A stretch of DNA of 64,000 nucleotides from positions 36,031 through 100,030 of the IMG/VR virus record IMGVR_UViG_3300042535_000037; one strand, written 5' to 3'. The position numbers and the translations under genes were made by a program. Each line of letters opens with the position of its first letter. The stretch's first letter is position 1. Positions 2,813 to 34,694 of the stretch are shown here, in pieces. The notes beneath the pieces were generated by a model. The model was not told where the DNA came from. It saw only the letters and a list, made by a program, of their open reading frames with translations, and made no database searches. Source of the DNA: a virus. Its lineage: Duplodnaviria; Heunggongvirae; Uroviricota; Caudoviricetes.

Positions 2813-4351
2813 ATGAAAAAATTAGCCTCATTGATTGAATCCATAATGAATACATCTTCAACTAAAGCAAAGGAAGACCTTCTCGTTAACTTCCTGACAG
2901 AAAATCCATCTCCTGAATATATCCGTTTTCTTGGAAGTGAAATACTTCCGAAGCCTCAACCCTTAAACATAGGGAAAGCTACGGTCTCCAAAGCAATAGA
3001 AAACATTTCAGGTGCAAACATGAAAGAGCTCGTAAAAGAACATGGCTCCGTTTCACTTGCTACTTTCTATGCTTTCCAGAAAAGAAACACTAAGCCATCA
3101 ATATTTGATGACCTTCTGGTTCTTCCTTCCAAAAAATCAATTCTTACTATCCTTGAAAATATATCAAAGAATCAAAAGAAAGATGCTCAAGGAGAATACC
3201 TTTTCTCGATATTCAATGGACAAGACCCTCTATCTGCAATGGCTCTATCCCACTTCATTCTTGAAGACCTTCCCGTAGGCTATAACGACAAAATTCTCAT
3301 AAAAGCGATAGCTAGAGTCAAGTCTGTTCCAGCAGACCAAATAGAACTTGCTTACTACTTTACAAATTCATTTACAAAGTTAATGTATCTCAACAGTGTT
3401 GAGATTTCCTCTCTCATTGAAAAAGGTGCAGTAGTAGGATTTCCTGTAAAGTGTATGCTTTGTGAAACTCTCGAAAGTACATCATATCCTTGTATAACTC
3501 AACGTAAACTTGATGGCAACCGCTTACAAATTCACATTATATCTCCATCAATTTTCAAGTTATACTCCCGTAAGCTTGAAGATGTAACGGCATCACATCC
3601 CGACCTAGAGGAAGCAATCTCCAATTTCTACCATGACAATGTAAGTTACATGCCATGTATCTTAGATGGAGAAGCGATAATAGGTGGCAAGTTTACTGAT
3701 GGAATGACCCGCTTCCGAAGAAAACATGACATTGAAGAATATGCAGAAAAATATCCTGTGACTCTAAACATATTCGATATTATTGTGTGCTCAGGAGCCT
3801 CAATTGATAAAATGCCTCTTAGTGGTAGGATTGAATACCTTTCTACCTTCAAATTTAACGAAAGAATTCAACTAGTACCTCACATCATAACTAACTCTGA
3901 AGTGGAAATGCAGGAGTATTTCTCAATATGTCTTGAGGAAGGTTATGAAGGCATTATCATCAAAGACATAGAATCTCAATACCTCTTCAATTCAAGAGGC
4001 TCTGAATGGCAGAAACTCAAGCCTAAGTACACATACGACCTCATCTGCTACGATGGAAACTATGGAACCAACAAAAACAAAGATGTAATGTCATCCATCA
4101 AGCTTAAATCCTCTGAAGGCTTAGAATTAGGTAACTGCGCAGGTATATCCGAAGAGTCGATGCAGGAAATCACCAAGAGAATTGTTTCAGGTCAACAATT
4201 CGTTGTTGAAGTGGAGTTCGAATCTCTACAGAAAGGTGACACCTCTTCGGGTTACTCTCTTCGCTTCCCTCGCTTCATACGCATCCGTGATGACAAACAG
4301 TTATCTGAAGCAAACTCTATGAAAGACATAACCAAATGCAAGAGGACTTAA
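2813..4351 (+). CDS. lig: ATP-dependent DNA ligase
   Basis: motif I KLDGNR, motif IV EGIIIKD, motif V WQKLKPKY; 512 aa. Confidence 0.85.
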   Translation: MKKLASLIESIMNTSSTKAKEDLLVNFLTENPSPEYIRFLGSEILPKPQPLNIGKATVSKAIENISGANMKELVKEHGSVSLATFYAFQKRNTKPSIFDDLLVLPSKKSILTILENISKNQKKDAQGEYLFSIFNGQDPLSAMALSHFILEDLPVGYNDKILIKAIARVKSVPADQIELAYYFTNSFTKLMYLNSVEISSLIEKGAVVGFPVKCMLCETLESTSYPCITQRKLDGNRLQIHIISPSIFKLYSRKLEDVTASHPDLEEAISNFYHDNVSYMPCILDGEAIIGGKFTDGMTRFRRKHDIEEYAEKYPVTLNIFDIIVCSGASIDKMPLSGRIEYLSTFKFNERIQLVPHIITNSEVEMQEYFSICLEEGYEGIIIKDIESQYLFNSRGSEWQKLKPKYTYDLICYDGNYGTNKNKDVMSSIKLKSSEGLELGNCAGISEESMQEITKRIVSGQQFVVEVEFESLQKGDTSSGYSLRFPRFIRIRDDKQLSEANSMKDITKCKRT

Positions 4352-4685: not shown

Positions 4686-5065
4686 ACAGCCAATACCCCT
4701 GCTTCTATTTTTCCATTTCTAATTTCATAGACAACTGTATCATAAGTTGTCAAATTCCATTTTTCAGAATTTTCTAATTTTCCATCCAAATATACATCTA
4801 TTTGATAAGAATTATCATAAAATATTGTACATGTTTTTGGAGCCTTCACAAACCCATTACTTCCAAGTATATACATTTCAGTTTCATTAATTCCTTTTAT
4901 GTCAACAATTACTTCATGTGTTTCATTATCATTGTTCCTAACCTCATAGAATGACGTTGGAGCACCAGCAAAAACCATGAAAATAATCATATACATCGCT
5001 GTTATAGTAATAATTGTTACTAAACCTACTATCAATTTTGCTTTTCTTTTCATCTCAAGTAACAT
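4682..5065 (-). CDS. secreted/membrane-anchored small protein
   Basis: N-terminal hydrophobic segment; convergent 4-nt overlap with 4353..4685. Confidence 0.45.
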   Translation of the reverse strand: MLLEMKRKAKLIVGLVTIITITAMYMIIFMVFAGAPTSFYEVRNNDNETHEVIVDIKGINETEMYILGSNGFVKAPKTCTIFYDNSYQIDVYLDGKLENSEKWNLTTYDTVVYEIRNGKIEAGVLAV

Positions 5066-5224
5066 ATAACAATCACTATAAGAGCTTTTCTCTATTAAAA
5101 TAGCGAAAAAATTAATACCTATGCCGTCTTTATTTAAACGTTGTGGTAAAAGCTTAAATACTACGCAGCCAATTTACATCATAGAAGTGTAAGACTTCAC
5201 TTGAACAAATATGAGGTAATTCAA

Positions 5225-5620
5225 ATGAGTGAGAAACAGACTAAGAGAACTTTCATTGTATATAACGCTGAAGAATTTGATAACTCCGGTAAACTTGTGC
5301 CACTGAGAGGCGACAAGGGAACAGTCCGTAAGGTAACTGGTCGCTACCCAATCAATGCCGCAAATAAGGTCGCTGCAATGGGTCTCTCAGACATCATAAT
5401 CAGACAGACTCGTATAAGAAACAAGGTCAGGAGATACAAGGGAAGTATTGAGGAAGTCACCCTTGAAGAGAAGAATATTCCTGTATGGGCTATGGGTGCT
5501 GCTACCCTCGATGGTAACGGAAACAAGGTCTATAAGGCAAAGAAGGGCGTTGCAGACTATGTAGGTCTCGTAAAACTTCCAAAAGGAACCCTTCTGGATG
5601 CAACCGAAGACGAAGAGTAA
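5225..5620 (+). CDS. MC1-family archaeal chromatin (architectural DNA-binding) protein homolog
   Basis: VTGRYPINAANKVAAMG / DIIIRQTRIRNKV / PVWAMG match the MC1 motifs FTGKQPRQAALKAANRG / DIIRLRERGTKKV / PAWMP; SD GAGGT before internal ATG (track 5201..5620). Confidence 0.6.
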   Translation: MSEKQTKRTFIVYNAEEFDNSGKLVPLRGDKGTVRKVTGRYPINAANKVAAMGLSDIIIRQTRIRNKVRRYKGSIEEVTLEEKNIPVWAMGAATLDGNGNKVYKAKKGVADYVGLVKLPKGTLLDATEDEE

Positions 5621-5753
5621 CTCTCTTCATCGGTTTTTCTCCAATTACATTAACTAACTTTCTAAAAACCTTTTTATATTTTCGAGTTGACATTAGGTTG
5701 TGCGGTCATTCATCGCTCACTTTGTCAACTCACTCATTCAGGACCGCACTGCC

Positions 5754-6101
5754 TCAACACTGTCTACTTCTAACAGGACAAAAGACTATTTCTTTCATCA
5801 TATACTTGCATTCACAAAAAGAGCATCCACATTTAAAATGTTGGCAAGTCAACTTACTTTCCTCTGAACAGCAAACGCTTTGCATATTCAAAATATCCTG
5901 AGCATATATTGGCTTTATACATCCAATTATCTCTTCAATATTTTCATTTATTCCATACACTAATACTAAAAATGTTTTCATGGACTTTTCAAAAGAAAGT
6001 CCAACAAGGCTCTGGACAAAATACGATGACCTCTTAAAATCATCATACATATTCCTGAACATCTCTTCTTTGAATGACACTTGTGCCATTTGTACCACCA
6101 T
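5754..6101 (-). CDS. Cys-rich zinc-binding protein
   Basis: C-terminal CC..C..C.C.C cluster; canonical promoter on minus strand (tttatatacaataaaacacatt..ATG). Confidence 0.5.
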   Translation of the reverse strand: MVVQMAQVSFKEEMFRNMYDDFKRSSYFVQSLVGLSFEKSMKTFLVLVYGINENIEEIIGCIKPIYAQDILNMQSVCCSEESKLTCQHFKCGCSFCECKYMMKEIVFCPVRSRQC

Positions 6102-6138
6102 TTATATTACAAATGTGTTTTATTGTATATAAATATTA

Positions 6139-6336
6139 TCAATAAACCATTTCAAATCTGTATCTCTTTTTTAGCAATTTTACGCGAGCTCCATTTACTA
6201 AACCCTTTCCTGTATACACTTTCCATTCGTTTTCTGAGACTTGTTCCAACGTTACATTCGAACCATAGAAGAATTTTACAATTGCTCTATGTATCTGCTC
6301 TAATGAGCCTGCACTTGCTATTAACTTTGTTTCCAT
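6139..6336 (-). CDS. hypothetical small protein
   Basis: ORF only. Confidence 0.3.
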   Translation of the reverse strand: METKLIASAGSLEQIHRAIVKFFYGSNVTLEQVSENEWKVYTGKGLVNGARVKLLKKRYRFEMVY

Positions 6337-9141: not shown

Positions 9142-9216
9142 GAGTCCGTAGCTCAGTTGGTAGTTAGCGTCTGACTGTTAATCAGAAGGTCGTAGGTTCG
9201 AACCCTGCCGGATTCG
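9142..9216 (+). tRNA. tRNA-Asn (GTT)
   Basis: cloverleaf: acceptor GAGTCCG/CGGATTC, U8, GG in D-loop, anticodon loop CUGUUAA, T-loop TTCGAAC, discriminator G; D-stem only 3 bp (TT insertion). Confidence 0.7.
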
Positions 9217-11513: not shown

Positions 11514-12734
11514 ATGAAAAGTGTTTACATCGTATTATTGTTGCTATTAGCTATGGTAATTCCCGCGTGTGCTTCAGACGAAGAGTTGAAGCCTGCAAGA
11601 ATATCAGAGGTATACTTCTCTGACATATCTCAATATTTGTTCAATGATAACCCTACATACACATACGAAGTTGGACAACCTGTTAACATTCGTATATCCA
11701 TAGAAAATCAGTATCCAGAGTTTAGAACTTTTAACTATGCTGTTCATAAAAAGACGCTATCTAATGGAAAAACATATTGGGGTTCATCAGGAGCTACATA
11801 CCCAGAATGGAAATTTAGGCTCGGTCCTAACCAAATAAAAACTCAATACGTAACCATAAACCCACCAACTGAAGTAGGTCTTTACGAATATAGAATTGAA
11901 ACAGAAAAGAGAACAACTAGTAGTTCAGATTGGAAGAGTGACGAATACAGATACTTTAAAATTAATGTGATAAACCCTGTACAAGCTACCACTGACACTT
12001 CCGATTCATCAAGCACTACAGACTCTACTCCTACTGTTCAGGAACCAACTACAGCTTCACTTACTGTAAAAGCAAATGTACAAGACTTCTATGTAGCTTG
12101 CGAAAATGCCAAGTACTACGCTACAGGAAGTAACACTGTTACTGTATCAAATTTCAAAAAGAATTCAAACTATGTAATCGCTGTTTGTAAAGATGGATAC
12201 GATACAGTTACATTCCCTGCTTATCTTTCACAAGATACCAGTACAGAAGTTACATTAACTGAAACTCAGAAAGCTACGATTGTAGACTCCAATGAAGATG
12301 ATAGTGGAGAAGTAAATGCATCTGTTGACGTTGAAATTACAAAATCAGACACTATTGCACTAAAAGTTCTTGTACAAGATATGGATGAAAATTACTTACC
12401 ATATGCTCTCATTAACGTAGACGGTGCAGAACTTAAATCATCTAAACTAGGTTCAACCTTCTATCTTACAGATGGAGACTTCGATGTAGTAGTTACTAAG
12501 GAAGGCTATAACGCTGTAATTGAGTCATACTCAATCAAGGAAGATACAGAACTCATAATCACAATGGAAGAGACTGTAGAATCAGATGACTTACTTACAA
12601 CCAACGCAAATATAGAACTAATTAGTCCTACTATAACAAATAACTCAACATCTTCTACAACATACCTCTATGTAATCGCAACTATAGTGCTTTTAGTAAT
12701 GGGATTCCTAGTATATAAAATTAGGAAATCTTAA
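11514..12734 (+). CDS. cell-surface protein (signal peptide, Thr/Ser linker, C-terminal TM anchor)
   Basis: N-terminal MKSVYIVLLLLLAMV..A; C-terminal hydrophobic helix + KIRKS. Confidence 0.6.
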   Translation: MKSVYIVLLLLLAMVIPACASDEELKPARISEVYFSDISQYLFNDNPTYTYEVGQPVNIRISIENQYPEFRTFNYAVHKKTLSNGKTYWGSSGATYPEWKFRLGPNQIKTQYVTINPPTEVGLYEYRIETEKRTTSSSDWKSDEYRYFKINVINPVQATTDTSDSSSTTDSTPTVQEPTTASLTVKANVQDFYVACENAKYYATGSNTVTVSNFKKNSNYVIAVCKDGYDTVTFPAYLSQDTSTEVTLTETQKATIVDSNEDDSGEVNASVDVEITKSDTIALKVLVQDMDENYLPYALINVDGAELKSSKLGSTFYLTDGDFDVVVTKEGYNAVIESYSIKEDTELIITMEETVESDDLLTTNANIELISPTITNNSTSSTTYLYVIATIVLLVMGFLVYKIRKS

Positions 12735-12801: not shown

Positions 12802-15800
12802 ATGAACCTTAAAAGCCTACTGATATTCCTATTCGTATTTCTTTTAACCATCAACGTAGGTTCCGCAGCTACACCGCCAATTGTGTACGTTGCTACTGAC
12901 GGAACAGGCGACTACAACTGTGATGGAACTGCCGACCAAGTACAATTAAACGATGCGTTATTATTTGCCTATAATAACAGAGCATCTGGATACACTACAG
13001 TCTACCTAAGAAGTGGAACTTACTGGATAGACTCTCAGATATTTCTCACCAACAACATAATTCTTACAGGTGATTCTACAGCTAAAATTAAGCTTATAGA
13101 CGACTGTCCTTGGCAAAGAACGTACACAGGTGCATTGGCATATTCATCTTCTGGTACTCAAACCTTGCCTATGATAATGGCTCGTAGTGGTCATAATACA
13201 GGTTTCACTATCACTAACATCATTATTGATGGAAACTCTCAAGGAAACACAGATGTACCATTTGGTCAGGGATGGTATAACCTCTTAAACTTCTACCAGT
13301 GTACACATGTTTCACTGGACCATGTTACGTTACAGTATGGTAAATCAGACGGATTTAAATTTCAGTCAGGCTCATACGCTTCAATGACAAACTGTAATGT
13401 CAACAAAATAGGTCACGATGCAGGGTATTTCCTATACTCAAACTACATAACGTTTACAAATAATACTGTATTTACTCGTACAAACTCTGCATGTCGTATC
13501 AGTAGCGGTGCTCACATAGTTATTGCTCACAACCATATTTACTCAGGAACCATTACCACTGCCGATGGTGGCGGCTCTTCAACCGGACCCGGAATTGAAA
13601 TAGATTTAGATGGCTCTGAATACTGTTATGATTGTGAAATATATGACAACGTAATTCATGACCTTAGAGGTTCAGGCATATGGATGACATCATCTAATGC
13701 AGATGGTGGAAGAGATGTTCACATCTATAACAATATAATTTATAATGTTGGTAAATATACTTACTTTAATGGTTACTCTATGGGTGGAATAACGCTCTTC
13801 CAATTCAACAATTCAATCATAGAGAACAATGTTTTTAATGAAGCAGGAGTGGGAGCACTCATTTACGCTGAAGGAACTGATTCTCCTACAGGTGGAAGCA
13901 AGCTTTATCATACTACTTTCAGAAACAACATAGTCATTAACACAAATGACCAACTACCAACTACTTCAGGTGGTTCAACTTACATATATGCAGTTCCAAT
14001 AATGAATCATGATGGAACTTACAGTAGAATCCATGCTTACAACAATGACTTCTACAACAACTACAACAACCTTGTCTACAAATCACACGTAGCTACAGAC
14101 TCTAACAACCTAGCAGTGGACCCTCAATTCGTAGATGCAACAAATCATAACTACCATCTAAAATCAACTGCTGGTCACTATAACAACGGAAATTGGGTAA
14201 TAGACGCTGTATCTTCATCACTCATAGATGCAGGTCTCTCTACTTCAGACTATTCCGATGAACCTGAACCCAACGGTAATCGCATCAACATAGATGCATA
14301 TGGAAATACTGCTCAGGCATCTAAATCTCCAACTGAGACAACACCTACCCCAGACCCAGACCCCGTTAATCCTGAGCCTGAACCTGTAGTAGTAGAGATA
14401 CAAGACCCTGTAGACAACCGCTTGCGCTCTCTATCTCCAACAACAGTATACTCTTCATCTACATACATAGATGCAGGAAATATAGCTTCTACGAGCTCTA
14501 CGGTGCGTGACCTGATTTGGTACGACCTAACAAATTACAACGATTCAAGCCAAGTAACTAGTGCCGAACTCAAATTGTTCTGGTATTATCAAACATCACG
14601 TACTTCAGATACAATCATAGAAATCTATAGACCTGCTGCAACATGGAGTACATCAACTGCAACATGGAACAATGCTAACACATGGTATGATGCTAACGGA
14701 GTGCTTGGTGGTTCAACACCATACGATTCAATCACATTCCCATCAACACAATCTCCAACAAACAGTTACTACTCATTTGATGTAACTGACCTTGTACAAG
14801 CATATGCAGAAGGAACCTACACTAACACAGGTTTCCTCATCAAAACACGTACAGAAAACAATGACTACGTTGCTTTCTACTCTCTAGACAACGGAAACTC
14901 TTCAAGGGTTCCAGTATTAGACATAAGTAGCACAGCAGTAAATATTGAAGCGTACTCTCCTACATCAAATCCAACGAAAACAGTAGGACAGTCACAAATT
15001 TTTACTACTCAATTAACTGCTACAGGAGATGTAGAATGGTCAGTTGATGGTATAATTAAGGAATATGACCTTAATACTCAACATGCATCATACACCTTCA
15101 CACCAACTGCTGCAAGAACCTATACGATAAGAGCAGAGACACCAACTGCTTACAAGTCTTGGTCTCTCACAGCTACATCAAATTCAACATCTAACCCTGC
15201 ATCTAACGTGACTACCTCAGTCTCAGGTATAGCCTACGTTGCTACTACAGGCTCCGACACTACAGGTAATGGTTCAATTTCTCTACCATATGCCACAATC
15301 ACAAAAGCCCTAACAACAACTGCACCTACAATCATGGTTAAAGGTGGTAACTATAACCTAGCTACCCCAATAACCCGTAGTAATGTAATAATTAAGGGAT
15401 ATAACGGCAATGCAGTATTTGACCATTCCGATGATACAGGAACAGCCTTCACGGTTACAGGTAGAACAAACATTACTCTACAGAATCTCATAATTCGTAA
15501 CTATGAATATGGTGTCTATGGAACAACTTCACTAACAAACTTGATAGTAGAGAACTGTTCAATCACAAATAATGCTCAGGACTCAATCTGGCTCGACCAG
15601 ATAAACGCCAACGGAATATACCTATATAACTCTACATTTGCAGACAATGAATATCACGGTGTCCATCTATCTAACCAAGAAGTAGGAAAACTAATCCAAA
15701 ATGTAGTCATAGAAAACAATGATTTCTATGATTGTCCAAGTAATCTATTGGACTTCCGTTCCAACGTTACGGATGTTACTTGCTCTGAAAATTATTACTA

Positions 15801-16824
15801 CTTCAACTCAGATGAAATCCAGCAGGTAGGAGTATATATCCACAATAACAACTTGGAGACATTTAGTTTCACTAATGAAGAATTCTATAACTGTGCTAGA
15901 CCTATGGAAATACTCAACGGTCAATCAGTTACAGTTACAAGTTCTCACTGGAACAATATTCACGATGCAACTGCACCACCAGTCTACGTCAATGGAGTTG
16001 AATTCCCTGTTACAGCTTCAGGTAGAGCAATTCTCTTCGGTGGTAACTCTCCAACTAACGAAGGAACTACATATACAGGATACAACAATGTATTCACTGA
16101 TATAGAGCAAACTCTATTTCCAACATACTCTGAAGCAGTAGGAACACCAGTTACAGTGCGTGAATATAACGCTACACTATCAAATGTATCTAAAATATTC
16201 TCTACTTCATCCTGCATAGAAAATATTGCAATACAAACATACCATAATTCACCAGTTAAAACCTTTGAATTTACAAATGCAAATGCTTTGACTTGGAAAT
16301 GGTATGTTAACAATACTTTGGTAGAAACAGACACTAATACGTACTTCCCATCACGTATTCAGAGCGGAATGACAACTGGAACCAATGTCTCAGCAATATG
16401 CACAGACAACGGTGATACACTCCGCATGACTTGGATTAGAGGAAATGGAACAGAAGTTAACGGTGTAATCTACACTAGATACCCGTATACAAGTTCTCCA
16501 AAGCAACTGAAGGGCAATGATGTTTCATTCTCTCTTACTCTCAATGGAAATGCAGACACAAAATGGTATGTAGATAATGTTCTTGTGGAAACAGATTCTT
16601 CCTCAAGTCCAACTTACATATACAATGCCACTGTATCTGGAACACATGTAGTAAAAGCAGTGACATCAGAAGAGACATACACTTGGAATCTTAACGTAGA
16701 AAACCCACAGCAAAAGTTCTACGTAGGTGTAATCACAAGAATAGGTCAAGTGCTATCTTGGGATACAAGAAAACCAACATATGACGACCAAGTTGTAGAC
16801 GGGTTCACCATAATTACAAGGTGA
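12802..16824 (+). CDS. giant secreted right-handed beta-helix (pectin-lyase-fold) repeat protein, adhesin/receptor-binding-like
   Basis: signal peptide; repeated NxxxxN/beta-helix turns (NNTVFTRTN, IAHNHIYSG, DNVIHDLRGSGIWM, ITNNAQDSIWLD); Pro/Thr linker. Confidence 0.75.
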   Translation: MNLKSLLIFLFVFLLTINVGSAATPPIVYVATDGTGDYNCDGTADQVQLNDALLFAYNNRASGYTTVYLRSGTYWIDSQIFLTNNIILTGDSTAKIKLIDDCPWQRTYTGALAYSSSGTQTLPMIMARSGHNTGFTITNIIIDGNSQGNTDVPFGQGWYNLLNFYQCTHVSLDHVTLQYGKSDGFKFQSGSYASMTNCNVNKIGHDAGYFLYSNYITFTNNTVFTRTNSACRISSGAHIVIAHNHIYSGTITTADGGGSSTGPGIEIDLDGSEYCYDCEIYDNVIHDLRGSGIWMTSSNADGGRDVHIYNNIIYNVGKYTYFNGYSMGGITLFQFNNSIIENNVFNEAGVGALIYAEGTDSPTGGSKLYHTTFRNNIVINTNDQLPTTSGGSTYIYAVPIMNHDGTYSRIHAYNNDFYNNYNNLVYKSHVATDSNNLAVDPQFVDATNHNYHLKSTAGHYNNGNWVIDAVSSSLIDAGLSTSDYSDEPEPNGNRINIDAYGNTAQASKSPTETTPTPDPDPVNPEPEPVVVEIQDPVDNRLRSLSPTTVYSSSTYIDAGNIASTSSTVRDLIWYDLTNYNDSSQVTSAELKLFWYYQTSRTSDTIIEIYRPAATWSTSTATWNNANTWYDANGVLGGSTPYDSITFPSTQSPTNSYYSFDVTDLVQAYAEGTYTNTGFLIKTRTENNDYVAFYSLDNGNSSRVPVLDISSTAVNIEAYSPTSNPTKTVGQSQIFTTQLTATGDVEWSVDGIIKEYDLNTQHASYTFTPTAARTYTIRAETPTAYKSWSLTATSNSTSNPASNVTTSVSGIAYVATTGSDTTGNGSISLPYATITKALTTTAPTIMVKGGNYNLATPITRSNVIIKGYNGNAVFDHSDDTGTAFTVTGRTNITLQNLIIRNYEYGVYGTTSLTNLIVENCSITNNAQDSIWLDQINANGIYLYNSTFADNEYHGVHLSNQEVGKLIQNVVIENNDFYDCPSNLLDFRSNVTDVTCSENYYYFNSDEIQQVGVYIHNNNLETFSFTNEEFYNCARPMEILNGQSVTVTSSHWNNIHDATAPPVYVNGVEFPVTASGRAILFGGNSPTNEGTTYTGYNNVFTDIEQTLFPTYSEAVGTPVTVREYNATLSNVSKIFSTSSCIENIAIQTYHNSPVKTFEFTNANALTWKWYVNNTLVETDTNTYFPSRIQSGMTTGTNVSAICTDNGDTLRMTWIRGNGTEVNGVIYTRYPYTSSPKQLKGNDVSFSLTLNGNADTKWYVDNVLVETDSSSSPTYIYNATVSGTHVVKAVTSEETYTWNLNVENPQQKFYVGVITRIGQVLSWDTRKPTYDDQVVDGFTIITR

Positions 16825-22032: not shown

Positions 22033-22704
22033 GTGATTATCATGACAAAAATTGTAGAAATTGAACGTGAAAACGGATGCATCGAATGTGTTTCTCATAG
22101 AGCAGTTAATGGAAATCCTCTTACTATTCTCGAAGATGGTAAAAGAATTAAGTACTCTGAACTAAAATGGAAAATGGAAAAAGGAGAGATACCAGCCGAT
22201 ATGTCTATTTCTTACTTATGTGGAAATCCTAATTGTGGAAATCCAGACCATATGACCCTTATTACTAAAAAAGAAAAATATAACTTCTTCTCAAGAAATG
22301 GTATAGACTTCTATATTGGAAAATCAAATCTCACTCCCGAAATAATCAGATACATCTATGTTGCACCAGCAGAAATGAGCAATAAAGATGTTTCTCAAGA
22401 CGTATTCTTCAAATTCGAAAGAAGAATAAAGACAGATACAATATCTGGAATTCGTAAAGGAAAGAGGTTTGTAGAAATGACTCAAGACCTTGAATCTCCA
22501 ATTCTAGGCAAAGGAATCCGTAGCGAGATGTCAACTGGTAAAAGTAAAAAGAAATTTAGAATTACGGTTGACCAATTAACTCCTGAGCAAATAGAAAAAA
22601 TCAAAGTAGAAGATGCTGTAATTAACCACTTCACCTCAAAATTCAATGTTTCCAAAAAAACCATTAAAGCTATTCGTAGTGGAAAATACTCAGTATCATT
22701 ATGA
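22033..22704 (+). CDS. HNH-like (HNH_3-type) endonuclease-related protein
   Basis: SHRAVNG...YLCGNPNCGNPDHM...resembles HNH_3 HR..DH.NG..N motifs. Confidence 0.4.
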   Translation: MIIMTKIVEIERENGCIECVSHRAVNGNPLTILEDGKRIKYSELKWKMEKGEIPADMSISYLCGNPNCGNPDHMTLITKKEKYNFFSRNGIDFYIGKSNLTPEIIRYIYVAPAEMSNKDVSQDVFFKFERRIKTDTISGIRKGKRFVEMTQDLESPILGKGIRSEMSTGKSKKKFRITVDQLTPEQIEKIKVEDAVINHFTSKFNVSKKTIKAIRSGKYSVSL

Positions 22705-23273: not shown

Positions 23274-23318
23274 TAAATTTTATATACTTTGAGCACCATT
23301 ACTCATATGGTGATTCAA

Positions 23319-24281
23319 ATGTCAAAGATTGTATCAATAATTGCAGTTTTAGTAATCGGAATGATTGCTGGAATTGCAGGATTCTATCTTTCTTCAAACT
23401 ATCAAATTGTACAGACTTCCGAACAACCAACAACTACAGTTACAACTTCAACTCCGGTAGTGAACACTCCCGAAGTAGTGGTTCCAGCAGTAGATGTAAC
23501 TGAGAATAGGGAATATGTAAATGAGCAGGATGATGTCTTCGGAAAGATTGAGGACTCAGAGCCAGTAATTGTAACTCCATCATATAAGACTGCATACATC
23601 GTAGACTCAGAAAAGGAGATTACAACCTACCTCGCAAGAAATCTCTACCCAACTGAGACATTCATATACTCAATCAATTACAACTCAACAACCTCTAAGT
23701 CAAACATTGCAGAATCATACAAGATTCTGATATTCAAGGAAATAGACTACGTGGATTGGAACCTCTCATCAAATGAGGAATACATATACAGTGACCAGTA
23801 TGTAGAATACATGTGCTCACAGAAAGACCTTGAGAGATATAAGAACCAGAAGACTACAACAAAGATTGTATACGTTGAGACCCCTGTATATGTCTCAACA
23901 GATGTAGCAACCCCACCGGAAGTAGGAGATGTAAGTGTTCCTACTACATCAATGCCAGCAGAGTTTGATGTATCATACTCTACTTGGTATAGTGTATACC
24001 CTGAAACCTCAGATGGAACATGTAAGATGGATGTGTATGTAGAATATGTCATAACAAATAGTGGTGACTCATTCGGAACTTATACATTTACATCGGACCT
24101 GATTACATACTCAATGGATGGATTCTCTCTAGGAATGGGAGACAAGATTATCAGTGTAGATTGCTACGGACATGAGTCTGTAACAACGATAAGTACATTC
24201 GAGGTATATGTGACTTCAGAGTCAGTAAGTGATTATGATTCTGGATTCAGAGGATTTAATGTAATAAACGAGGAAATCTAA
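23319..24281 (+). CDS. membrane-anchored Thr-rich protein, paralog 1
   Basis: canonical promoter (ccattactcatatggtgattcaaATG); N-terminal TM; paralog of 24399..25238. Confidence 0.55.
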   Translation: MSKIVSIIAVLVIGMIAGIAGFYLSSNYQIVQTSEQPTTTVTTSTPVVNTPEVVVPAVDVTENREYVNEQDDVFGKIEDSEPVIVTPSYKTAYIVDSEKEITTYLARNLYPTETFIYSINYNSTTSKSNIAESYKILIFKEIDYVDWNLSSNEEYIYSDQYVEYMCSQKDLERYKNQKTTTKIVYVETPVYVSTDVATPPEVGDVSVPTTSMPAEFDVSYSTWYSVYPETSDGTCKMDVYVEYVITNSGDSFGTYTFTSDLITYSMDGFSLGMGDKIISVDCYGHESVTTISTFEVYVTSESVSDYDSGFRGFNVINEEI

Positions 24282-24398
24282 ATGTTGAACCTGAGAATTT
24301 TCTTAGTGGGAATTCTCTTCACTCTTTTTCTTTGTGGAGTAGGATTCCTTAGCATACTTTTAAATACATAAAACACATACTTTATGTAGGTGACTTAA

Positions 24399-25238
24399 AT
24401 GTCCGAGGAAATAAATGATATAATTGACCTTAGAAGAGTTCCTAAGAAGAAGTCAAATTTACCATATACATTAGTAATGGTTATACTTGGCTTTGTACTT
24501 GGAGCAGGAGCCTTTTACATAGCATCTGACTACAATACAGTTGTGCCAATAAGCAGCCCTGTAGTGACTCAGACAGTAGATGACCTTGGAATAGTTTCAG
24601 GTAACGCAAATGTAATAACCAAGAGCGTTAACCAAGCCTATAATGTAGCTTACGTGGCTCCATCTATGGTTGATGTAACAGACTATCTATCCAGAAGTCT
24701 TGACTCTTCAGAGATATATATCCCATCAAGTTCATATACACAAGCAACCGCTCAGGCAAATCTTACGGTCCAATACAACATTATAATAACTGACCCTTCA
24801 GATGCGCCATCGTGGGTACTCGCGCCCAATGAGCAACTTTTGTATACAAATATTGACAACAACATAATTGGAACACAAGAATCTGAAACATCAGTAGAGC
24901 CTAACTTCATGGTTCTAACGGACCTGAAGTACTCTCAAGCACTTGATGTTGAACCATCTATGGAAGACAAGGTTCCAATTTACATCACAGTAACATACAA
25001 AATCAATAACTTGGGAGAAACAACTGACAGTTGTGTATTCTCATCAACAATTGATTATGTAAACGTTAACGATGGAGTTAGAAGTACAATGTATGATGAC
25101 TCCGTTGTAGTAAAAGACTTAGAATCTGACAAGATTAGAACAAAGGAAGTCACTTATAAGGGAGAAATGACCCTTCATGAGTGGGAATGCATACAAAATA
25201 ATCTTGCCACATTCGAGGTTACAACAGCGATGTTGTAA
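24399..25238 (+). CDS. membrane-anchored protein, paralog 2
   Basis: N-terminal TM, shared blocks with 23319..24281. Confidence 0.55.
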   Translation: MSEEINDIIDLRRVPKKKSNLPYTLVMVILGFVLGAGAFYIASDYNTVVPISSPVVTQTVDDLGIVSGNANVITKSVNQAYNVAYVAPSMVDVTDYLSRSLDSSEIYIPSSSYTQATAQANLTVQYNIIITDPSDAPSWVLAPNEQLLYTNIDNNIIGTQESETSVEPNFMVLTDLKYSQALDVEPSMEDKVPIYITVTYKINNLGETTDSCVFSSTIDYVNVNDGVRSTMYDDSVVVKDLESDKIRTKEVTYKGEMTLHEWECIQNNLATFEVTTAML

Positions 25239-25282: not shown

Positions 25283-26053
25283 ATGTTAGAAATCCAGCCA
25301 ATTGTATCTATCAATGCTCAGACATTCTCTGAAGCATACATGAAGGTTCTATGGAACATTAAAGAAGTTGGCGTAGAACACAAACCAGATTACAACGTTT
25401 CAACAAAAAGAATTTATCTTGCACTCTTTGTAAAAGACGTAAACTCTGACCAGTTAAGTCCAATCTGTCCTCTTAAAGAGGAATCTCTCAAGCTCTACAA
25501 AGATGAGCTTAAAGAAGAGTATGCAGAATGGTATGTCTCCCTTCCAGATGATGACAAACGCAAGTTTGACTATTGCTACGCCAAGCAGCTCTACAAGTTT
25601 GGTACAGAAGACATGAATACTCTCAGGATGAACCTTCTCAGTCTTCGCGTAGGCTCCCGAAGACATGCAGCCGCTCTATGGGATAACCGTCTTCACATCG
25701 AAAAATATGAAGACCAGCCATGTTGGGTCTTCTACAAGTTGGAGCTCCTGAGCGAAACAGACCTTCTCGTCTACATTACATATCGTTCATGGGATGCCTT
25801 TGGTGGACTTCCATTTAACCTTCCTGCAATTACTCATGGAATCCAAGACACCATTAAGAAACTCAACCTACCCTACAACATAGTTGGTTTCTTTGCAAAT
25901 GGCTACGATACTCACATATATGAAACTGACCAGAAGCAGGCATTTGATGGTCTCAAGAACTACTCCCCATGTTCAAAATGTGGAGAACCAACCCTTAAAT
26001 CACAAATGACCTTTAATTCAAAGGGTCTTTGTTGTAAAAGCTGCCTGAAGTGA
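25283..26053 (+). CDS. divergent thymidylate synthase (ThyA) family enzyme with C-terminal zinc ribbon; TS or pyrimidine hydroxymethylase
   Basis: SRRHAAALWD, PCWVFYKLEL (catalytic Cys), YITYRSWDAFGGLPFNLP (RS..D...N), GYDTHIY (H,Y) match ThyA cores; N-terminal third diverged; CSKCG...CCKSC tail. Confidence 0.7.
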   Translation: MLEIQPIVSINAQTFSEAYMKVLWNIKEVGVEHKPDYNVSTKRIYLALFVKDVNSDQLSPICPLKEESLKLYKDELKEEYAEWYVSLPDDDKRKFDYCYAKQLYKFGTEDMNTLRMNLLSLRVGSRRHAAALWDNRLHIEKYEDQPCWVFYKLELLSETDLLVYITYRSWDAFGGLPFNLPAITHGIQDTIKKLNLPYNIVGFFANGYDTHIYETDQKQAFDGLKNYSPCSKCGEPTLKSQMTFNSKGLCCKSCLK

Positions 26054-29204: not shown

Positions 29205-30140
29205 ATGTTCCTTGCTACATGTGAGGTTTTCACAAAAAACGGATGGAAACTTCTACCCGAAGAACCTTGTTCTATCCCAGATGTATTTACATTTGACCCT
29301 AATTCTGGAAAGATAGAACTAGGAAAATTCACCTACAAAACAACTGAGTATGTAGGAAAAGTAGTTACTATTCAAAATCGTTTACTTGACTTGGTATTTC
29401 CAGAATTATCCATGTTCCTTACTAACCAGCAAGAAAAAATCAATTGTTATTGCCGTTTTCCAGTATATGCAATAAACAAAAAAAGTACTACATCTCTTCC
29501 AGTATCGGGATACTATGAAGGCTCGGAAATAGAAGACCCTTTACTTTTGTACTTGGTTGGTATCATCATTTCAAAAGGAAGACTATCTTCAGAAAACATA
29601 GAATTATTTATAGAAATGGAAGACTTAGCAGACCATATCTCCGATGTATTAACTGAATTAAGCATCTCTCATAAAAAGAATTCAATCCAAATAGGAGATA
29701 CAACTGCAACAGCCTTTAAGATTCAAAATTACAAGCAGTACGAATTTTCTAAATACTTCAACAATTCACTTCATCCAAATTCTATGCTACTTGAAATATC
29801 TATTCCAGAGAGACTAGCAATTATAGAAGCAATTATGGATACATGTTCATCTAAACGTGACCGTTTCATATTTACACATCCCGATAAACAAATTCATGAA
29901 TTCATAAGAGACCTGCTAACACTTAGCGGGATGAACTCTTATTACGTGAAAACTATGTACTCAGGTCTATCTTTATCAATAAAGCCTGAGCCATTCGCTA
30001 CCGTTCACCACTCAAATTTCGACAACTCAATATCAAAAGCCGAAATGAACAGCAAGTTTATAAGTGGTAAAAATAAGTTCAATACAGTAGTTGTGAAATG
30101 CGCAGACAAAATTTGCGTTGTTCATACAGACAATCCATGA
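29205..30140 (+). CDS. hypothetical protein (weak Hint/LAGLIDADG-like features, not supported)
   Basis: same frame as HD gene across a single TAA. Confidence 0.45.
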   Translation: MFLATCEVFTKNGWKLLPEEPCSIPDVFTFDPNSGKIELGKFTYKTTEYVGKVVTIQNRLLDLVFPELSMFLTNQQEKINCYCRFPVYAINKKSTTSLPVSGYYEGSEIEDPLLLYLVGIIISKGRLSSENIELFIEMEDLADHISDVLTELSISHKKNSIQIGDTTATAFKIQNYKQYEFSKYFNNSLHPNSMLLEISIPERLAIIEAIMDTCSSKRDRFIFTHPDKQIHEFIRDLLTLSGMNSYYVKTMYSGLSLSIKPEPFATVHHSNFDNSISKAEMNSKFISGKNKFNTVVVKCADKICVVHTDNP

Positions 30141-32705: not shown

Positions 32706-34694
32706 GTGATGGTTATGAAAAAATACTTTATTTTATTTTTACTCCTACTCATATCAACGGCAAGTGCAGTTGATGTGAACCCACCCTTAGTATTTGCGGG
32801 TAATACAACTTCAGTTACTCTCAATTACTCAACTACAGTTGATGCCTTAACATTCTATTCTCAAAACAATACCCTAGTAATGGATGATATATCTCATCAG
32901 TTTACTACTACAGGAACGATGAATGTTACTTTCAACGGTTTATTAGAGCTTACTCATACAGGTAGCACAGGTACTTGGACCGTTGGCGGGCTACAGGATG
33001 GAAACTATTCTCTATACATAGACGACTCCTTCTATGAAACAATTTCAAATGGAGATGCTGTATCCCTTAATTCTATAGCAAAATATGAAATTCAACCAGC
33101 AGACGATGTTATGACTTTGAACATGACTTATTGGGAACCTCTCAATGAAACATGTGCTAAATTCACCATCTCAAATGTCTATACAGCATGGTATCCACAG
33201 CTTTCATACACAGTAGCAGACCATACATATTTCCTTTACCGTGACTCAACAGGAACTCTCCTTGCAACTAACGCTACTACATCAACAAACCAAACCATCA
33301 CACTTATAGGAGACTCCATACTTACTTCAGGAAATTATACCATCACTCACATTTTAACATCACTTGTAGGAGTAACTGTTCCAGAAATTACATCATACTC
33401 ACCATCTACACCATCATTCTCAATATTACCAAGTGGTCAAACATCTCAGAGAACATTTACAATTTCATCTGCCAATGACCCCAACTTAGACGTAAAATGG
33501 TATTATGGTGACAAATTCTACAGTTCATACGCCAATGATGAAAATTACATATCTACTTATGGATATACATTAGTAGACACTGTAGAAGTCAATTCTACAT
33601 CAACAACACATACATTCACAACTGATGAACCTGAAACAATAGGTGTAATTGCTCGTCTTATGAATGAGTCAAGTGGTCTCTATGAAGACAAAATCTGGAA
33701 TTGGGTAGTTCAGGAACCAGACTTTGATGAATCTATGGAATATAGTAGTGTTCCTACAGAGAAACCAAACACTATCATCCTTACATCTTCAAATGAGCAC
33801 ATATCAAGTGTAATCTTAGAGTATGAAATTGATGGGGAATACACTAACGTAACAATGGAATCTACATACTCTAATTATGAATATGGAGAAACCATTAACA
33901 ATGAAACTTCATACACATATACTGAAATATTTGAATGTGAAATTAACCCAATGGAAGAAGGAACCTATAACATTGCATCATACTATGTAACTCAGGATGG
34001 AGTTCAATACTCTATAGATGGAAATCTTGAGTTTACAGCAGCAGTAGATGGTTCCACAGTTCAATATACAACTCGTTCTTCCGGTGGCTCATCTTCCGGT
34101 GGTAGTGGTGGAAGTTCAAAGACAACTCAGACCCAAGAAATCATAGAAAAACTCGTAGTTAAAGATGGAGTGGAAACATTCAAGAAGACTTCAGAACACT
34201 CTCTATATTCAGTTTCATCATCAGATGAATCATTTACTGTGCTTGTAAAAGATATAGACAGTGAATTAGAAGATGAATCCGTCTACAAAGAAATGGACAT
34301 TTCAACAACTGAAAACGAAACAGTTGACATAACATTCCTTGTAGATACCTCTTGGCTTAACGAAAATGGCGGCTCTGTAAAACTCCTTCATTATACAAAC
34401 GATGAATGGGTAGAAGTTCCAGTAAAGATGCTCTCAAAGACAGATGACTATGTTAAATATGGAGCAACATTAACTTCATACTCTCCATATGCAATCGTGG
34501 CATCCAACGCCAACGTAGGAACCTCTACGAGCGACTCAGACGTAGGAACCTACATTATCATAGCAGTACTTGTAATAGGAGCTCTAGCGTACCTAAGATT
34601 CAAGCCAAGGTCAAAGAAACCCTTTAGTCTTAAATCCCTAAACAAGACTAAACAAAAATCAAAGCCAAAAAAGAGAAATTGGACAGAATTATGA
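32706..34694 (+). CDS. cell-surface protein (signal peptide, Gly/Ser linker, C-terminal TM + basic tail)
   Basis: canonical promoter; S/T-rich. Confidence 0.6.
   Translation: MMVMKKYFILFLLLLISTASAVDVNPPLVFAGNTTSVTLNYSTTVDALTFYSQNNTLVMDDISHQFTTTGTMNVTFNGLLELTHTGSTGTWTVGGLQDGNYSLYIDDSFYETISNGDAVSLNSIAKYEIQPADDVMTLNMTYWEPLNETCAKFTISNVYTAWYPQLSYTVADHTYFLYRDSTGTLLATNATTSTNQTITLIGDSILTSGNYTITHILTSLVGVTVPEITSYSPSTPSFSILPSGQTSQRTFTISSANDPNLDVKWYYGDKFYSSYANDENYISTYGYTLVDTVEVNSTSTTHTFTTDEPETIGVIARLMNESSGLYEDKIWNWVVQEPDFDESMEYSSVPTEKPNTIILTSSNEHISSVILEYEIDGEYTNVTMESTYSNYEYGETINNETSYTYTEIFECEINPMEEGTYNIASYYVTQDGVQYSIDGNLEFTAAVDGSTVQYTTRSSGGSSSGGSGGSSKTTQTQEIIEKLVVKDGVETFKKTSEHSLYSVSSSDESFTVLVKDIDSELEDESVYKEMDISTTENETVDITFLVDTSWLNENGGSVKLLHYTNDEWVEVPVKMLSKTDDYVKYGATLTSYSPYAIVASNANVGTSTSDSDVGTYIIIAVLVIGALAYLRFKPRSKKPFSLKSLNKTKQKSKPKKRNWTEL

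What the first reader, a model, noticed from the sequence alone, without database searches (positions are those of the whole stretch)
5201..5620. MC1-family archaeal chromatin protein encoded on the element
The protein has the signature blocks of Methanosarcina chromosomal protein MC1 (TG-basic-P-x-x-AA-K-x-A-x-x-G, DIIR, P-x-W) in the right order. MC1 is an architectural DNA-bending protein of a subset of Euryarchaeota. A mobile-element copy would imply the element packages or organises its own DNA with a host-type chromatin protein, and it constrains the host range.
Basis: partly seen in the sequence, partly recalled or inferred. Interest (0 to 1): 0.6.

Follow-up and report, generated by a model that had tools for sequence, protein, structure and literature searches.

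The report
Divergent MC1-like DNA-bending protein gene
A large virus-like archaeal mobile element carries its own distant, enlarged relative of MC1, the DNA-bending chromatin protein of Methanosarcina; it belongs to a small lineage found so far only on mobile elements, which makes it a modest extension of known biology.

Summary
One ORF (most likely start ATG 5225, stop 5620, 131 aa) carries the MC1 blocks TG-R-x-P-x-x-AA-x-K-x-A-x-x-G, DII(I)R and P-V-W in MC1 order. The first block occurs once in the six-frame translation, against 3e-8 expected by chance.

The family link is distant. The protein alone gets no Pfam or PDB hit. Its relatives P0007, P0009 and P0012 pass the Pfam MC1 cut-off. 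A profile of its four-member clade matches a canonical MC1 alignment at 96.8% hhalign probability. The AlphaFold model (pLDDT 79) has the MC1 order of strands and helix. Its best matches among predicted viral structures are giant-virus MC1-domain proteins.

It is not a recent host copy. Identity to 112 canonical MC1 proteins is about 27%. It sits in a 13-cluster clade; every member whose context I could read lies on mobile-element-like DNA, and three lineages have an ATP-dependent DNA ligase nearby.

It differs from MC1 in four ways: 22-residue insert, longer arm, acidic tail, and Ile where MC1 has the bending-critical Arg25.

Most likely it is a DNA-bending architectural protein that acts on the element's own DNA; this is inferred. 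MC1 on archaeal elements and giant viruses is already published, so this is a new variant of a known kind.

The parts
5225..5620 (+). Coding sequence of the 131-aa MC1-like protein (stop codon included). Calculated pI 9.63, 14.5 kDa.
   Evidence: ORF list and sequence. Identical 131-aa product on record from JGI and called on a Logan contig. dN/dS 0.10 against the L002 homologue. Charge calculation.
5201..5224 (+). Probably 5' UTR, not coding.
   Evidence: The JGI-sourced protein and the Logan gene call are both 131 aa, starting at ATG 5225. Homologue P0002 aligns from that ATG.
5149..5163 (+). Candidate archaeal BRE/TATA promoter box AAAGCTTAAATACTA, about 65 nt upstream of the start codon.
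   Evidence: The box AAAG[C/T]TTA[A/T]ATACTA is shared by the window and L002; L005 (P0003, 45% identity) keeps only the TTATATACTA part. All three lie in otherwise diverged intergenic DNA upstream of the homologous genes. Promoter function is inferred from the known archaeal TATA consensus.
5213..5217 (+). Shine-Dalgarno-like GAGGT, 7 nt before ATG 5225.
   Evidence: Read directly from the sequence.
5336..5383 (+). TGRYPINAANKVAAMG (aa 38-53): end of strand beta2, loop LP2 and the single MC1 helix. R40 corresponds to MC1 K22, I43 to R25, K48 to K30.
   Evidence: hhalign and HMMER alignments to MC1. Helix 42-51 in the model. Residue roles from PMC3928310.
5264..5329 (+). Insert of 22 residues (aa 14-35) in place of MC1's 5-residue loop LP1. 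Contains a short predicted helix (aa 15-21).
   Evidence: Alignments A1/A2. hhalign leaves a gap here. Model secondary structure.
5468..5524 (+). Lengthened 'arm' (aa 82-100, against 11 residues in MC1 loop LP5). Carries P86-V87-W88, equivalent to MC1 P72-A73-W74. It is the most variable part of the protein.
   Evidence: Alignments. Model. Variability between the window and P0002. Trp invariant in the seven closest homologues, which define the long forms.
5540..5545 (+). K106-K107, placed opposite MC1 K85-K86 on strand beta5 (DNA-contact residues).
   Evidence: MAFFT alignment only. hhalign does not extend this far. Strand 101-116 in the model.
5591..5617 (+). Acidic, predicted-disordered C-terminal tail LLDATEDEE (net charge -5), absent from MC1.
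   Evidence: Charge by segment. pLDDT below 50 for residues 127-131. Acidic ends also in P0002, P0003 and P0006.
5612..5638 (+). Terminator-like hairpin overlapping the stop codon, followed by a T-run.
   Evidence: Pattern scan: 2 such sites found in 4900-6200 against 0.5 expected. Function is inferred.
2813..4351 (+). ATP-dependent DNA ligase, a recurring neighbour of the MC1-like gene in related elements (context, not part of the gene).
   Evidence: Pfam. In L006/L007 the same 512-aa ligase lies directly upstream of the homologue. In L003 it lies 7 kb upstream. The ligases are about 35% identical.
5754..6101 (-). Convergent Cys-rich 115-aa gene, a conserved downstream neighbour (context).
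   Evidence: 50% identical to the gene downstream of P0002 in L002. No Pfam family.

Best explanation
The gene encodes a small basic protein with the MC1 fold: a beta pseudo-barrel body with one helix and a protruding beta4-beta5 arm. It is a distant, enlarged relative of the archaeal chromatin protein MC1. By analogy with MC1, it should bind double-stranded DNA with little sequence preference and bend it. The arm (P86-V-W88) and the strand-beta5 lysines would sit in the minor groove, and the basic core (aa 31-70, net charge +10) would lie against the backbone. It appears to be transcribed as its own unit from an archaeal-type promoter. Most likely it coats and compacts the element's own genome during replication, and possibly for packaging, as the MC1-like protein gp275 does in mimivirus. 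Because the equivalent of MC1 Arg25 is Ile43, bending geometry or affinity probably differs from MC1. The acidic disordered tail may modulate DNA binding or recruit a partner. Shown here: homology, fold, charge, purifying selection, restriction of the clade to mobile-element contigs, and synteny. Inferred: DNA binding, bending, and the target DNA.
For: Homology to MC1:
- BLASTP against MC1 gives 32% identity over 68 aa in register.
- An exhaustive HMMER search finds six real relatives. P0007, P0009 and P0012 score 35.8, 24.1 and 36.4 bits on Pfam MC1, above the cut-off of 23.
- The clade profile has MC1 1T23 as its top PDB hit, E = 5e-6.
- hhalign of the strict four-member clade against 113 canonical MC1 sequences gives 96.8% probability, E = 2.7e-10. 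The seven-member clade gives 98.5%.

Fold:
- The AF2 model has pLDDT 79 and pTM 0.68, with the MC1 element order beta1-beta2-alpha-beta3-beta4-arm-beta5.
- The top 23 Foldseek matches in BFVD are all giant-virus proteins. Several are named 'Chromosomal protein MC1 domain-containing'. One is an Acanthamoeba polyphaga mimivirus protein that I did not identify further. The best has E = 1.2e-5.

DNA-binding character:
- pI 9.63, with a core of net charge +10.
- Equivalents of K22, K30, P72, W74 and K85/K86 are conserved.

Real and functional gene:
- dN/dS is 0.10.
- A conserved promoter-like box lies upstream and a terminator-like hairpin lies downstream.

Element association:
- Homologues recur near a DNA ligase in three diverged lineages.
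- The window is full of phage-type nucleic-acid genes and unknown ORFs.

Precedent:
- Mimivirus gp275 is MC1-like, packaged in the virion and essential.
- Methanoperedens jumbo elements encode MC1.
Against: - The protein alone gets no Pfam MC1 hit even at E <= 10, and scores only 16.4 bits on a canonical MC1 HMM I built.
- Arg25 is replaced by Ile43. In MC1, R25A lowers affinity about 130-fold and abolishes bending.
- Homology of the C-terminal third (aa 95-131) rests only on MAFFT and the model.
- No capsid, portal or terminase gene was found in the window. Virion packaging is therefore speculative, and it is not established that the element is a virus.
- No experiment supports DNA binding.
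Confidence: 0.55

Rival explanations
1. The protein has the MC1 fold and binds DNA, but its target is the host. It would remodel or displace host MC1/histone chromatin, or act as a global transcription modulator during takeover, rather than organise the element's own DNA.
For: It is highly diverged from host MC1 (about 27% identity). It has altered contact residues (I43 in place of R25) and an added acidic tail, as expected for a competitor or modulator. It appears to be a stand-alone transcription unit among nucleic-acid metabolism genes rather than among recognisable structural genes.
Against: Nothing speaks directly for a host target. Recurring proximity to a DNA ligase fits replication or repair of the element's own DNA equally well. 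The best-studied viral precedent, gp275, acts on viral DNA.
Confidence: 0.2
2. The MC1 scaffold has been repurposed for a role that is not architectural DNA bending, such as binding a protein partner, RNA or a damaged or modified DNA structure, or countering a host defence.
Confidence: 0.12
3. The gene lies in a host chromosomal region or island and is simply a divergent cellular MC1 paralogue, not part of a mobile element.
For: No capsid, terminase, relaxase or integrase gene was identified in the 64-kb window. I could not read the remainder of the 183-kb contig.
Against: There are no housekeeping genes. Most ORFs have no family. Genes run almost all on one strand. Phage-type genes are present: a kinase-phosphatase-RNA-ligase fusion 39% identical to proteins of large Bacillus phages, a second RNA ligase, an HNH endonuclease, dCMP deaminase, a thymidylate-synthase-like gene and a lone tRNA. 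Pattern scans found no relative in 185,579 species-representative genomes.
Confidence: 0.08
4. The resemblance to MC1 is chance or convergent. For example, the TG-x-x-P-x-x-AA motif could be ankyrin-like.
For: The only PDB sequence hit for the single protein is a Notch ankyrin repeat (E = 1.6). Ankyrin chains are the second-best hits of the clade profile (E = 0.004).
Against: MC1 outranks ankyrin by three orders of magnitude. The match covers beta1 through the arm, not only the helix motif. The predicted fold is beta-rich and matches MC1-domain proteins. Relatives pass the Pfam MC1 cut-off.
Confidence: 0.03

Closest known systems
Chromosomal protein MC1 of Methanosarcina thermophila (PDB 1T23/2KHL/2NBJ; Pfam PF05854)
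   Same: Same order of secondary-structure elements. Identical spacing of the TG-[KR]-x-P-x-x-AA-x-K-x-A-x-x-G helix block. P-x-W in the arm and a KK pair on strand beta5. Small and basic.
   Different: 131 aa against 93. About 24-32% identity. Below the Pfam cut-off. LP1 replaced by a 22-residue insert. LP3 shortened by 6 residues. Arm of about 19 residues against 11. Added C-terminal segment with an acidic tail. Ile in place of Arg25, and Ala in place of Met75. Encoded on a mobile-element-like contig rather than a chromosome.
MC1 proteins of Methanoperedens jumbo circular extrachromosomal elements (Nat Commun 2026, PMC13444090)
   Same: An MC1-family gene carried by a large extrachromosomal element of a Methanosarcinales-related archaeon, and proposed to organise that element's genome.
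   Different: Those proteins group phylogenetically with host Methanoperedens MC1, and their models align well with 2NBJ. The elements have 38-42% GC and many host-like genes. Here the protein is a deep-branching long form. The window has about 35% GC and holds mostly unknown ORFs plus phage-type genes.
Mimivirus gp275 (R252) and other MC1-like proteins of Nucleocytoviricota (bioRxiv 10.1101/2024.02.22.580433)
   Same: Virus-encoded, divergent MC1-fold proteins in which the critical Arg is substituted (Lys in gp275). They are the best structural matches to this model in BFVD.
   Different: They come from viruses of eukaryotes. gp275 is longer, reported as a tetramer, and shown experimentally to be packaged and essential. 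Nothing is shown experimentally here, and Ile rather than Lys replaces the Arg.
Short MC1-like proteins (92-107 aa; P0012, P0014, P0015) of integrase-bearing archaeal elements
   Same: They fall in the same 13-member divergent clade as the window protein in my NJ tree. They also lie on mobile-element-like DNA.
   Different: They lack the LP1 insert and the long arm. They pass or approach the Pfam cut-off. They sit beside a GP88/DUF459 module with MT-A70 methylases and, in one case, an integrase, not beside a ligase.

Membership tests
MC1 (Pfam PF05854, non-histone chromosomal protein MC1) | Sequence scores above the curated Pfam gathering cut-off (23 bits) | tested here: not met
   No hit for the window protein even at E <= 10. 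16.4 bits on a canonical MC1 HMM built here with filters off. Clade relatives P0007, P0009 and P0012 do pass, at 35.8, 24.1 and 36.4 bits.
MC1 superfamily (homology in the wider sense) | Statistically supported profile-level homology to canonical MC1 | tested here: met
   hhalign of the four-sequence clade against 113 canonical MC1 sequences: 96.8%, E = 2.7e-10. Seven-sequence clade: 98.5%, E = 1.9e-15. The clade profile's top PDB hit is 1T23, E = 5.2e-6. Transitive link: window to P0007 at E = 1.8e-10 in 1.84 billion proteins, and P0007 to Pfam MC1 at E = 1e-8.
MC1 superfamily | Fold: beta1-beta2-alpha1-beta3-beta4-(arm LP5)-beta5 pseudo-barrel | tested here: met
   The AF2 model (pLDDT 79.1) has the elements in that order, plus two extra short helices in the inserts. 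The top 23 BFVD matches are all giant-virus proteins, several named MC1 domain-containing, with probability 1.00 for most. The element definition comes from PMC3928310.
MC1 superfamily | Superposition on the solved MC1 structure | tested here: inconclusive
MC1 | Arg25 at the start of the helix (R25A: about 130-fold weaker binding, no bending) | tested here: not met
   The aligned residue is Ile43. Relatives have I, K, G or S at this position. The mutant data are in PMC3928310.
MC1 | Arm residues Pro72 and Trp74, and the basic contacts K22, K30, K85/K86 | tested here: met
   P86-V-W88, R40, K48 and K106/K107. Trp and K48 are invariant in the seven closest homologues, the set that defines the long forms. 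Met75 is not conserved (Ala89). The K85/K86 equivalence rests on MAFFT only.
MC1 | Small (about 90-100 aa), strongly basic protein | tested here: inconclusive
   pI 9.63 and net charge +7, against pI 10.32 and +10 for MC1. Length 131 aa, against 88-104 aa for canonical members. The protein is basic but about 40% longer.
MC1 | Monomeric, non-specific, high-affinity dsDNA binding with sharp bending; an abundant nucleoid component | not testable with these tools
   Requires gel-shift, AFM or NMR assays and proteomics.
Ankyrin repeat | Tandem helix-turn-helix repeats of about 33 residues | tested here: not met
   Only one partial motif match (Notch, E = 1.6 for the single protein and 0.004 for the profile). 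No Pfam ankyrin hit. The model is beta-rich with one core helix.

The most novel reading that the evidence does not exclude
The 13-cluster divergent clade could be an old lineage of MC1-like proteins that is specific to mobile elements and has circulated among archaeal viruses and integrative elements. The long, ligase-linked forms would then be packaged 'viral chromatin' of a so far undescribed group of large (140-183 kb or more) viruses of Methanosarcinales. That would be the first chromatin protein of this type in a prokaryotic virus. Such a lineage could also be the missing link between archaeal MC1 and the MC1-like proteins of giant eukaryotic viruses.
Probability: 0.15. Interest if true: 0.7.

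Novelty: new variant of a known kind. Interest (0 to 1): 0.42.

Why it matters
How viruses and large extrachromosomal elements of archaea organise their DNA is little studied. MC1 on mobile elements has been reported only for giant eukaryotic viruses and, in 2026, for Methanoperedens jumbo elements, whose copies resemble the host's.

This locus adds a deep-branching, structurally elaborated MC1-like form. The form is conserved under purifying selection and recurs near a DNA ligase in several large virus-like archaeal contigs. That pattern suggests some archaeal elements have kept their own architectural DNA protein for a long time rather than borrowing the host's.

The locus also offers a natural variant, with Ile at the Arg25 position, a longer arm and an acidic tail. 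This variant can be used to test which MC1 features are needed for bending. The finding does not overturn anything known.

Tried and rejected
Searches with the single protein that found nothing:
- Pfam, PHROGs and PDB sequence searches.
- tblastn of the protein, of MC1 and of P0007 against deposited phage genomes, and of the protein against plasmid records.

Structure searches:
- Foldseek against the PDB gave nothing below E = 0.3.
- The AFDB50 library was unavailable.

Collection scans for relatives of the MC1-like protein, none found:
- JGI metagenome contigs.
- GTDB genomes.

Collection scans with other window proteins, none found:
- GTDB genomes with the disaggregatase-like segment, to name a host.
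- IMG/VR with a ligase alignment, to find related viruses.

Searches for viral hallmark genes:
- Pfam and PHROGs scans of about 50 window ORFs found no capsid, portal, terminase, integrase or relaxase.

Rejected results and readings:
- The high-scoring long 'homologues' P0004, P0005, P0008, P0010 and P0011 from the exhaustive search are cadherin, SSSPR-51 and RCC1 repeat proteins. They are summed weak repeat matches and I discarded them.
- I considered and rejected an ankyrin-like reading of the helix motif.
- I considered that the element might be a Borg or a Methanoperedens jumbo element. The window has almost no tandem repeats, and its GC content and gene content differ from the published jumbo elements.
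- I considered tRNA-Asn as an integration boundary. Both flanks have the same composition and element-like genes, so I rejected this.

Technical failure:
- An offline all-against-all comparison of the window with loci L002, L003 and L005 failed because those files were not on the script machine. I used pairwise tool calls instead.

Full report
**1. The observation**

ORF 5201..5620 on the + strand exists. The TTG at 5201 is only the first possible start. The ATG at 5225 follows GAGGT (5213-5217) by seven bases. An identical 131-aa protein (P0001) is on record from JGI, and the same 131-aa product is called as a gene on a Logan contig.

The protein carries three blocks in this order: TGRYPINAANKVAAMG (aa 38-53), DIIIR (aa 56-60) and PVW (aa 86-88). 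I recalled the sequence of Methanosarcina thermophila MC1 from memory and confirmed it as identical to PDB 1T23/2KHL/2NBJ. Its TGKQPRQAALKAANRG block has exactly the same spacing.

The first block occurs once in the six-frame translation of the window, where 3.2e-8 occurrences are expected. The ordered three-block pattern also occurs once.

The gene is real. Against an 80%-identical homologue from another sample (P0002, locus L002), dN/dS is 0.10, with dS about 1.6.

**2. Is it MC1?**

- The single sequence has no Pfam hit, even at E <= 10.
- It has no PHROGs hit.
- Its only PDB sequence hit is a Notch ankyrin repeat at E = 1.6.
- Pairwise BLASTP against MC1 gives 32% identity over 68 residues in register. 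The E-value of 0.002 applies to that single comparison only.

An exhaustive HMMER search of 1.84 billion cluster representatives found few relatives:

| Protein | E-value | Length |
|---|---|---|
| P0002 | 5e-60 | 129 aa |
| P0003 | 5e-23 | 137 aa |
| P0006 | 6e-12 | 128 aa |
| P0007 | 2e-10 | 124 aa |
| P0009 | 2e-8 | 124 aa |
| P0012 | 8e-4 | 100 aa |

Five longer proteins in that list matched through many weak stretches. They are cadherin, SSSPR-51 and RCC1 repeat proteins, and I discarded them.

P0007, P0009 and P0012 score 35.8, 24.1 and 36.4 bits on Pfam MC1, above its 23-bit cut-off. P0003 and P0006 fall below it.

Profile comparisons confirm the link.
- A profile of seven clade members has MC1 1T23 as its best PDB hit, at E = 5.2e-6. 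Ankyrin chains are next, at 0.004.
- To avoid relying on the members that already match Pfam, I aligned only the window protein, P0002, P0003 and P0006. I compared that profile with an alignment of 113 canonical MC1 sequences gathered. hhalign gives 96.8% probability and E = 2.7e-10 over residues 36-93.
- With seven long forms, hhalign gives 98.5% and E = 1.9e-15 over residues 6-94.
- A canonical MC1 HMM scores the window protein at only 16.4 bits.

The protein is therefore a distant homologue of MC1. It does not meet the family's curated threshold.

**3. Fold**

AlphaFold2, run on the seven-sequence alignment, gives mean pLDDT 79.1 and pTM 0.68. The predicted elements are: strand 8-13, short helix 15-21, strand 36-39, helix 42-51, strand 56-61, strand 68-81, short helix 87-92 and strand 101-116. 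This is the MC1 order beta1-beta2-alpha-beta3-beta4-arm-beta5 (definition in PMC3928310), with extra elements inside two inserts.

Comparison with solved structures is weak.
- Foldseek against the PDB finds nothing below E = 0.3.

Comparison with predicted viral structures (BFVD) is clear. The top 23 hits are all giant-virus proteins. Several are named 'Chromosomal protein MC1 domain-containing', and one is an Acanthamoeba polyphaga mimivirus protein that I did not identify further. The best E-value is 1.2e-5, and target-normalised TM-scores reach 0.66. The AFDB library was not available.

I take the fold as MC1-like. The direct superposition on the NMR structure remains inconclusive.

**4. 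How it differs from MC1**

These differences come from the alignments.
- Loop LP1 (5 residues in MC1) is replaced by a 22-residue insert, aa 14-35.
- Loop LP3 is 6 residues shorter.
- The arm is about 19 residues long, against 11.
- About 15 residues follow strand beta5. They end in LLDATEDEE, which has net charge -5 and is predicted to be disordered.

The protein is basic overall (pI 9.63), and the core (aa 31-70) has net charge +10.

MC1's DNA-contact residues, as mapped by NMR and mutagenesis (PMC3928310), compare as follows.

| MC1 residue | Window protein | Conserved? |
|---|---|---|
| K22 | R40 | yes |
| K30 | K48 | yes |
| P72 | P86 | yes |
| W74 | W88 | yes |
| K85/K86 | K106/K107 (MAFFT alignment only) | yes |
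| M75 | A89 | no |
| R25 | I43 | no |

In MC1, the R25A mutant raises Kd from 1.2 to 161 nM and abolishes bending. Relatives of the window protein have I, K, G or S at that position.

**5. Relationship to cellular MC1, and genomic setting**

A profile search recovered 1,376 MC1-family proteins. The canonical ones are 88-104 aa long. NCBI names them non-histone chromosomal MC1 family protein, from Methanosarcinaceae, Methanohalophilus, Methanococcoides, Methanosalsum and ANME-2.

The window protein is 21.6-34.1% identical to 112 of these (median 26.7%). M. thermophila MC1 is 56-89% identical to them (median 79.6%). In a neighbour-joining tree, the window protein falls in a clade of 13 divergent clusters, apart from the canonical proteins.

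Wherever I could read the context of that clade, it looks like a mobile element.
- P0006 lies immediately downstream of a 512-aa ATP-dependent DNA ligase and a 1,060-aa minus-strand ORF. This arrangement resembles the window and its upstream extension L001.
- P0009 lies on a 140-kb scaffold of small, same-strand, unknown ORFs. A ligase 35% identical to the window's sits 7 kb upstream. A radical-SAM enzyme, a MoxR/VWA pair and a MazG-like gene are nearby.
- P0002 has the same neighbours on both sides as the window gene.
- The short forms P0012, P0014 and P0015 sit beside a GP88/DUF459 module. In some cases MT-A70 methylases, an SNF2 helicase and, once, a phage-type integrase are also present.

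Pattern scans found no relative in GTDB species-representative genomes, IMG/VR or JGI metagenome contigs. No deposited phage record matches the protein, MC1 or P0007, and no plasmid record matches the protein.

**6. The element**

The window has about 35% GC. Almost all genes are on the + strand, and GC skew is negative throughout. Tandem repeats are nearly absent, which argues against a Borg.

Identified genes:
- a family-4 glycosyltransferase and an ATP-dependent DNA ligase. The ligase's closest match among deposited viruses is Halogranum tailed virus 1, at 28% identity.
- a metallophosphatase and tRNA-Asn.
- a 1,340-aa beta-helix protein with disaggregatase-related domains.
- two RNA ligases. 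One is a kinase-phosphatase-ligase fusion that is 39% identical over its full length to proteins of large Bacillus phages and matches 505 phage records.
- an HNH endonuclease, a thymidylate-synthase-like protein, dCMP deaminase, a PD-(D/E)XK nuclease, a metallo-beta-lactamase-fold protein, an SPFH protein and a UvrD helicase.

I found no housekeeping genes. I also found no capsid, portal, terminase, integrase or relaxase gene.

I read this as part of a large virus-like element. From my own knowledge, disaggregatase domains are typical of Methanosarcina, which suggests a Methanosarcinales host. Neither 'virus' nor the host is demonstrated.

The element differs from the published Methanoperedens jumbo elements. 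Those have 38-42% GC, many host-like genes and host-like MC1.

**7. Expression signals**

The box AAAG[C/T]TTA[A/T]ATACTA (window 5149-5163) is shared by the window and the L002 homologue, and the more distant L005 locus keeps its TTATATACTA part, in otherwise diverged intergenic DNA. It fits an archaeal BRE/TATA element. That assignment is an inference from the known consensus. A hairpin followed by a T-run overlaps the stop codon (5612-5638). The gene therefore looks like an independent transcription unit.

**8. Mechanism**

*Most likely (0.55).* The protein is an MC1-fold, non-specific DNA-bending protein that organises the element's own genome. The substitution at the Arg25 position probably alters its bending. 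The acidic tail may tune binding or contact a partner.

*Rivals.*
- Host chromatin remodelling or global regulation (0.2).
- A repurposed scaffold with a role other than architectural bending (0.12).
- A chromosomal paralogue rather than an element gene (0.08).
- Chance resemblance (0.03).

Shown here: homology, predicted fold, charge, selection, clade and synteny. Inferred: DNA binding, bending and the target DNA.

**9. Novelty**

MC1-like proteins are already described in giant viruses of eukaryotes. Mimivirus gp275 is packaged in the virion and essential, and the MC1 fold was noted as shared between archaea and eukaryotic viruses in 2017. MC1 genes are also described on Methanoperedens jumbo elements.

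I found no report of MC1 in head-tailed or other viruses of archaea in the searchable literature.

This locus is a new variant of a known kind. It is a long, deep-branching form restricted to mobile-element-like DNA. It is interesting to specialists but does not surprise in principle.

Noticed in passing
window 34689-36860 (-): A 723-aa fusion of polynucleotide kinase (AAA_33), metallophosphatase and T4-type RNA ligase 1 lies on the minus strand of an otherwise + strand region. It is 39% identical over its full length to proteins of Bacillus SPbeta-like phages, and about 37% to those of Twort-like phages. It matches 505 phage records. This suggests exchange between bacterial phages and this archaeal element, and a tRNA-repair counter-defence role.
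   Followed up: partly
window 12802-16824 (+): A 1,340-aa protein with a right-handed beta-helix, Disaggr_assoc, Disaggr_repeat and CBM96 domains. It could be a depolymerase or receptor-binding protein aimed at a Methanosarcina-type cell envelope, and it is the main clue to the host. A GTDB pattern scan with part of it found no close relative.
   Followed up: partly
window 25283-26053 (+) and 44293-44787 (+): A weak thymidylate-synthase-family protein (34 bits) and a dCMP deaminase. Together they could mean that the element makes a modified pyrimidine for its DNA, which might bear on why it carries its own DNA-binding protein.
   Followed up: no
window 9142-9216 (+): A single tRNA-Asn (GTT) lies between element-like genes. 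Composition and gene type are the same on both sides, so it looks element-encoded rather than an integration site.
   Followed up: partly
window 1-64000: GC skew is negative in every 2-kb bin and becomes more negative after about 34 kb (around -0.25 to -0.39). Nearly all ORFs are on the + strand. No skew switch, and so no origin or terminus, is visible in the window.
   Followed up: no
window 5754-6101 (-); L002 1161-1493 (-): A Cys-rich 115-aa protein convergent with the MC1-like gene is conserved (50% identity) at the same position in the P0002 contig. It has no Pfam family and may be functionally linked.
   Followed up: partly
L008 8001-12083; L009 10001-13382; L010 3296-7244: Short MC1-like proteins (92-107 aa) recur next to a conserved minus-strand module of a DUF459/GDSL-like protein and a large GP88 (PF17338) protein. 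In L008 and L009 there are also MT-A70 methylases; L009 additionally has an SNF2 helicase and a phage-type integrase. This looks like a second family of archaeal mobile elements with its own MC1-like gene.
   Followed up: partly
window 29205-30137 (+); 22033-22704 (+): A 311-aa ORF whose sequence looks, by eye only, like a Hint/homing-endonuclease protein. It has no Pfam or PHROGs hit. An HNH endonuclease lies nearby. Together they hint at selfish-element activity inside the element.
   Followed up: no
window 11514-12734, 23289-25238, 32706-34694 (+): Several ORFs encode proteins with an N-terminal or C-terminal hydrophobic segment and long Ser/Thr-rich linkers. They resemble archaeal surface glycoproteins and have no family assignment.
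   Followed up: no
L001 2289-5474 (-); L006 1990-5172 (-): A minus-strand ORF of about 1,060 aa with no Pfam family lies upstream of the ligase in two diverged relatives of the element (just outside the window in L001). It appears to be a conserved core gene of unknown function.
   Followed up: no
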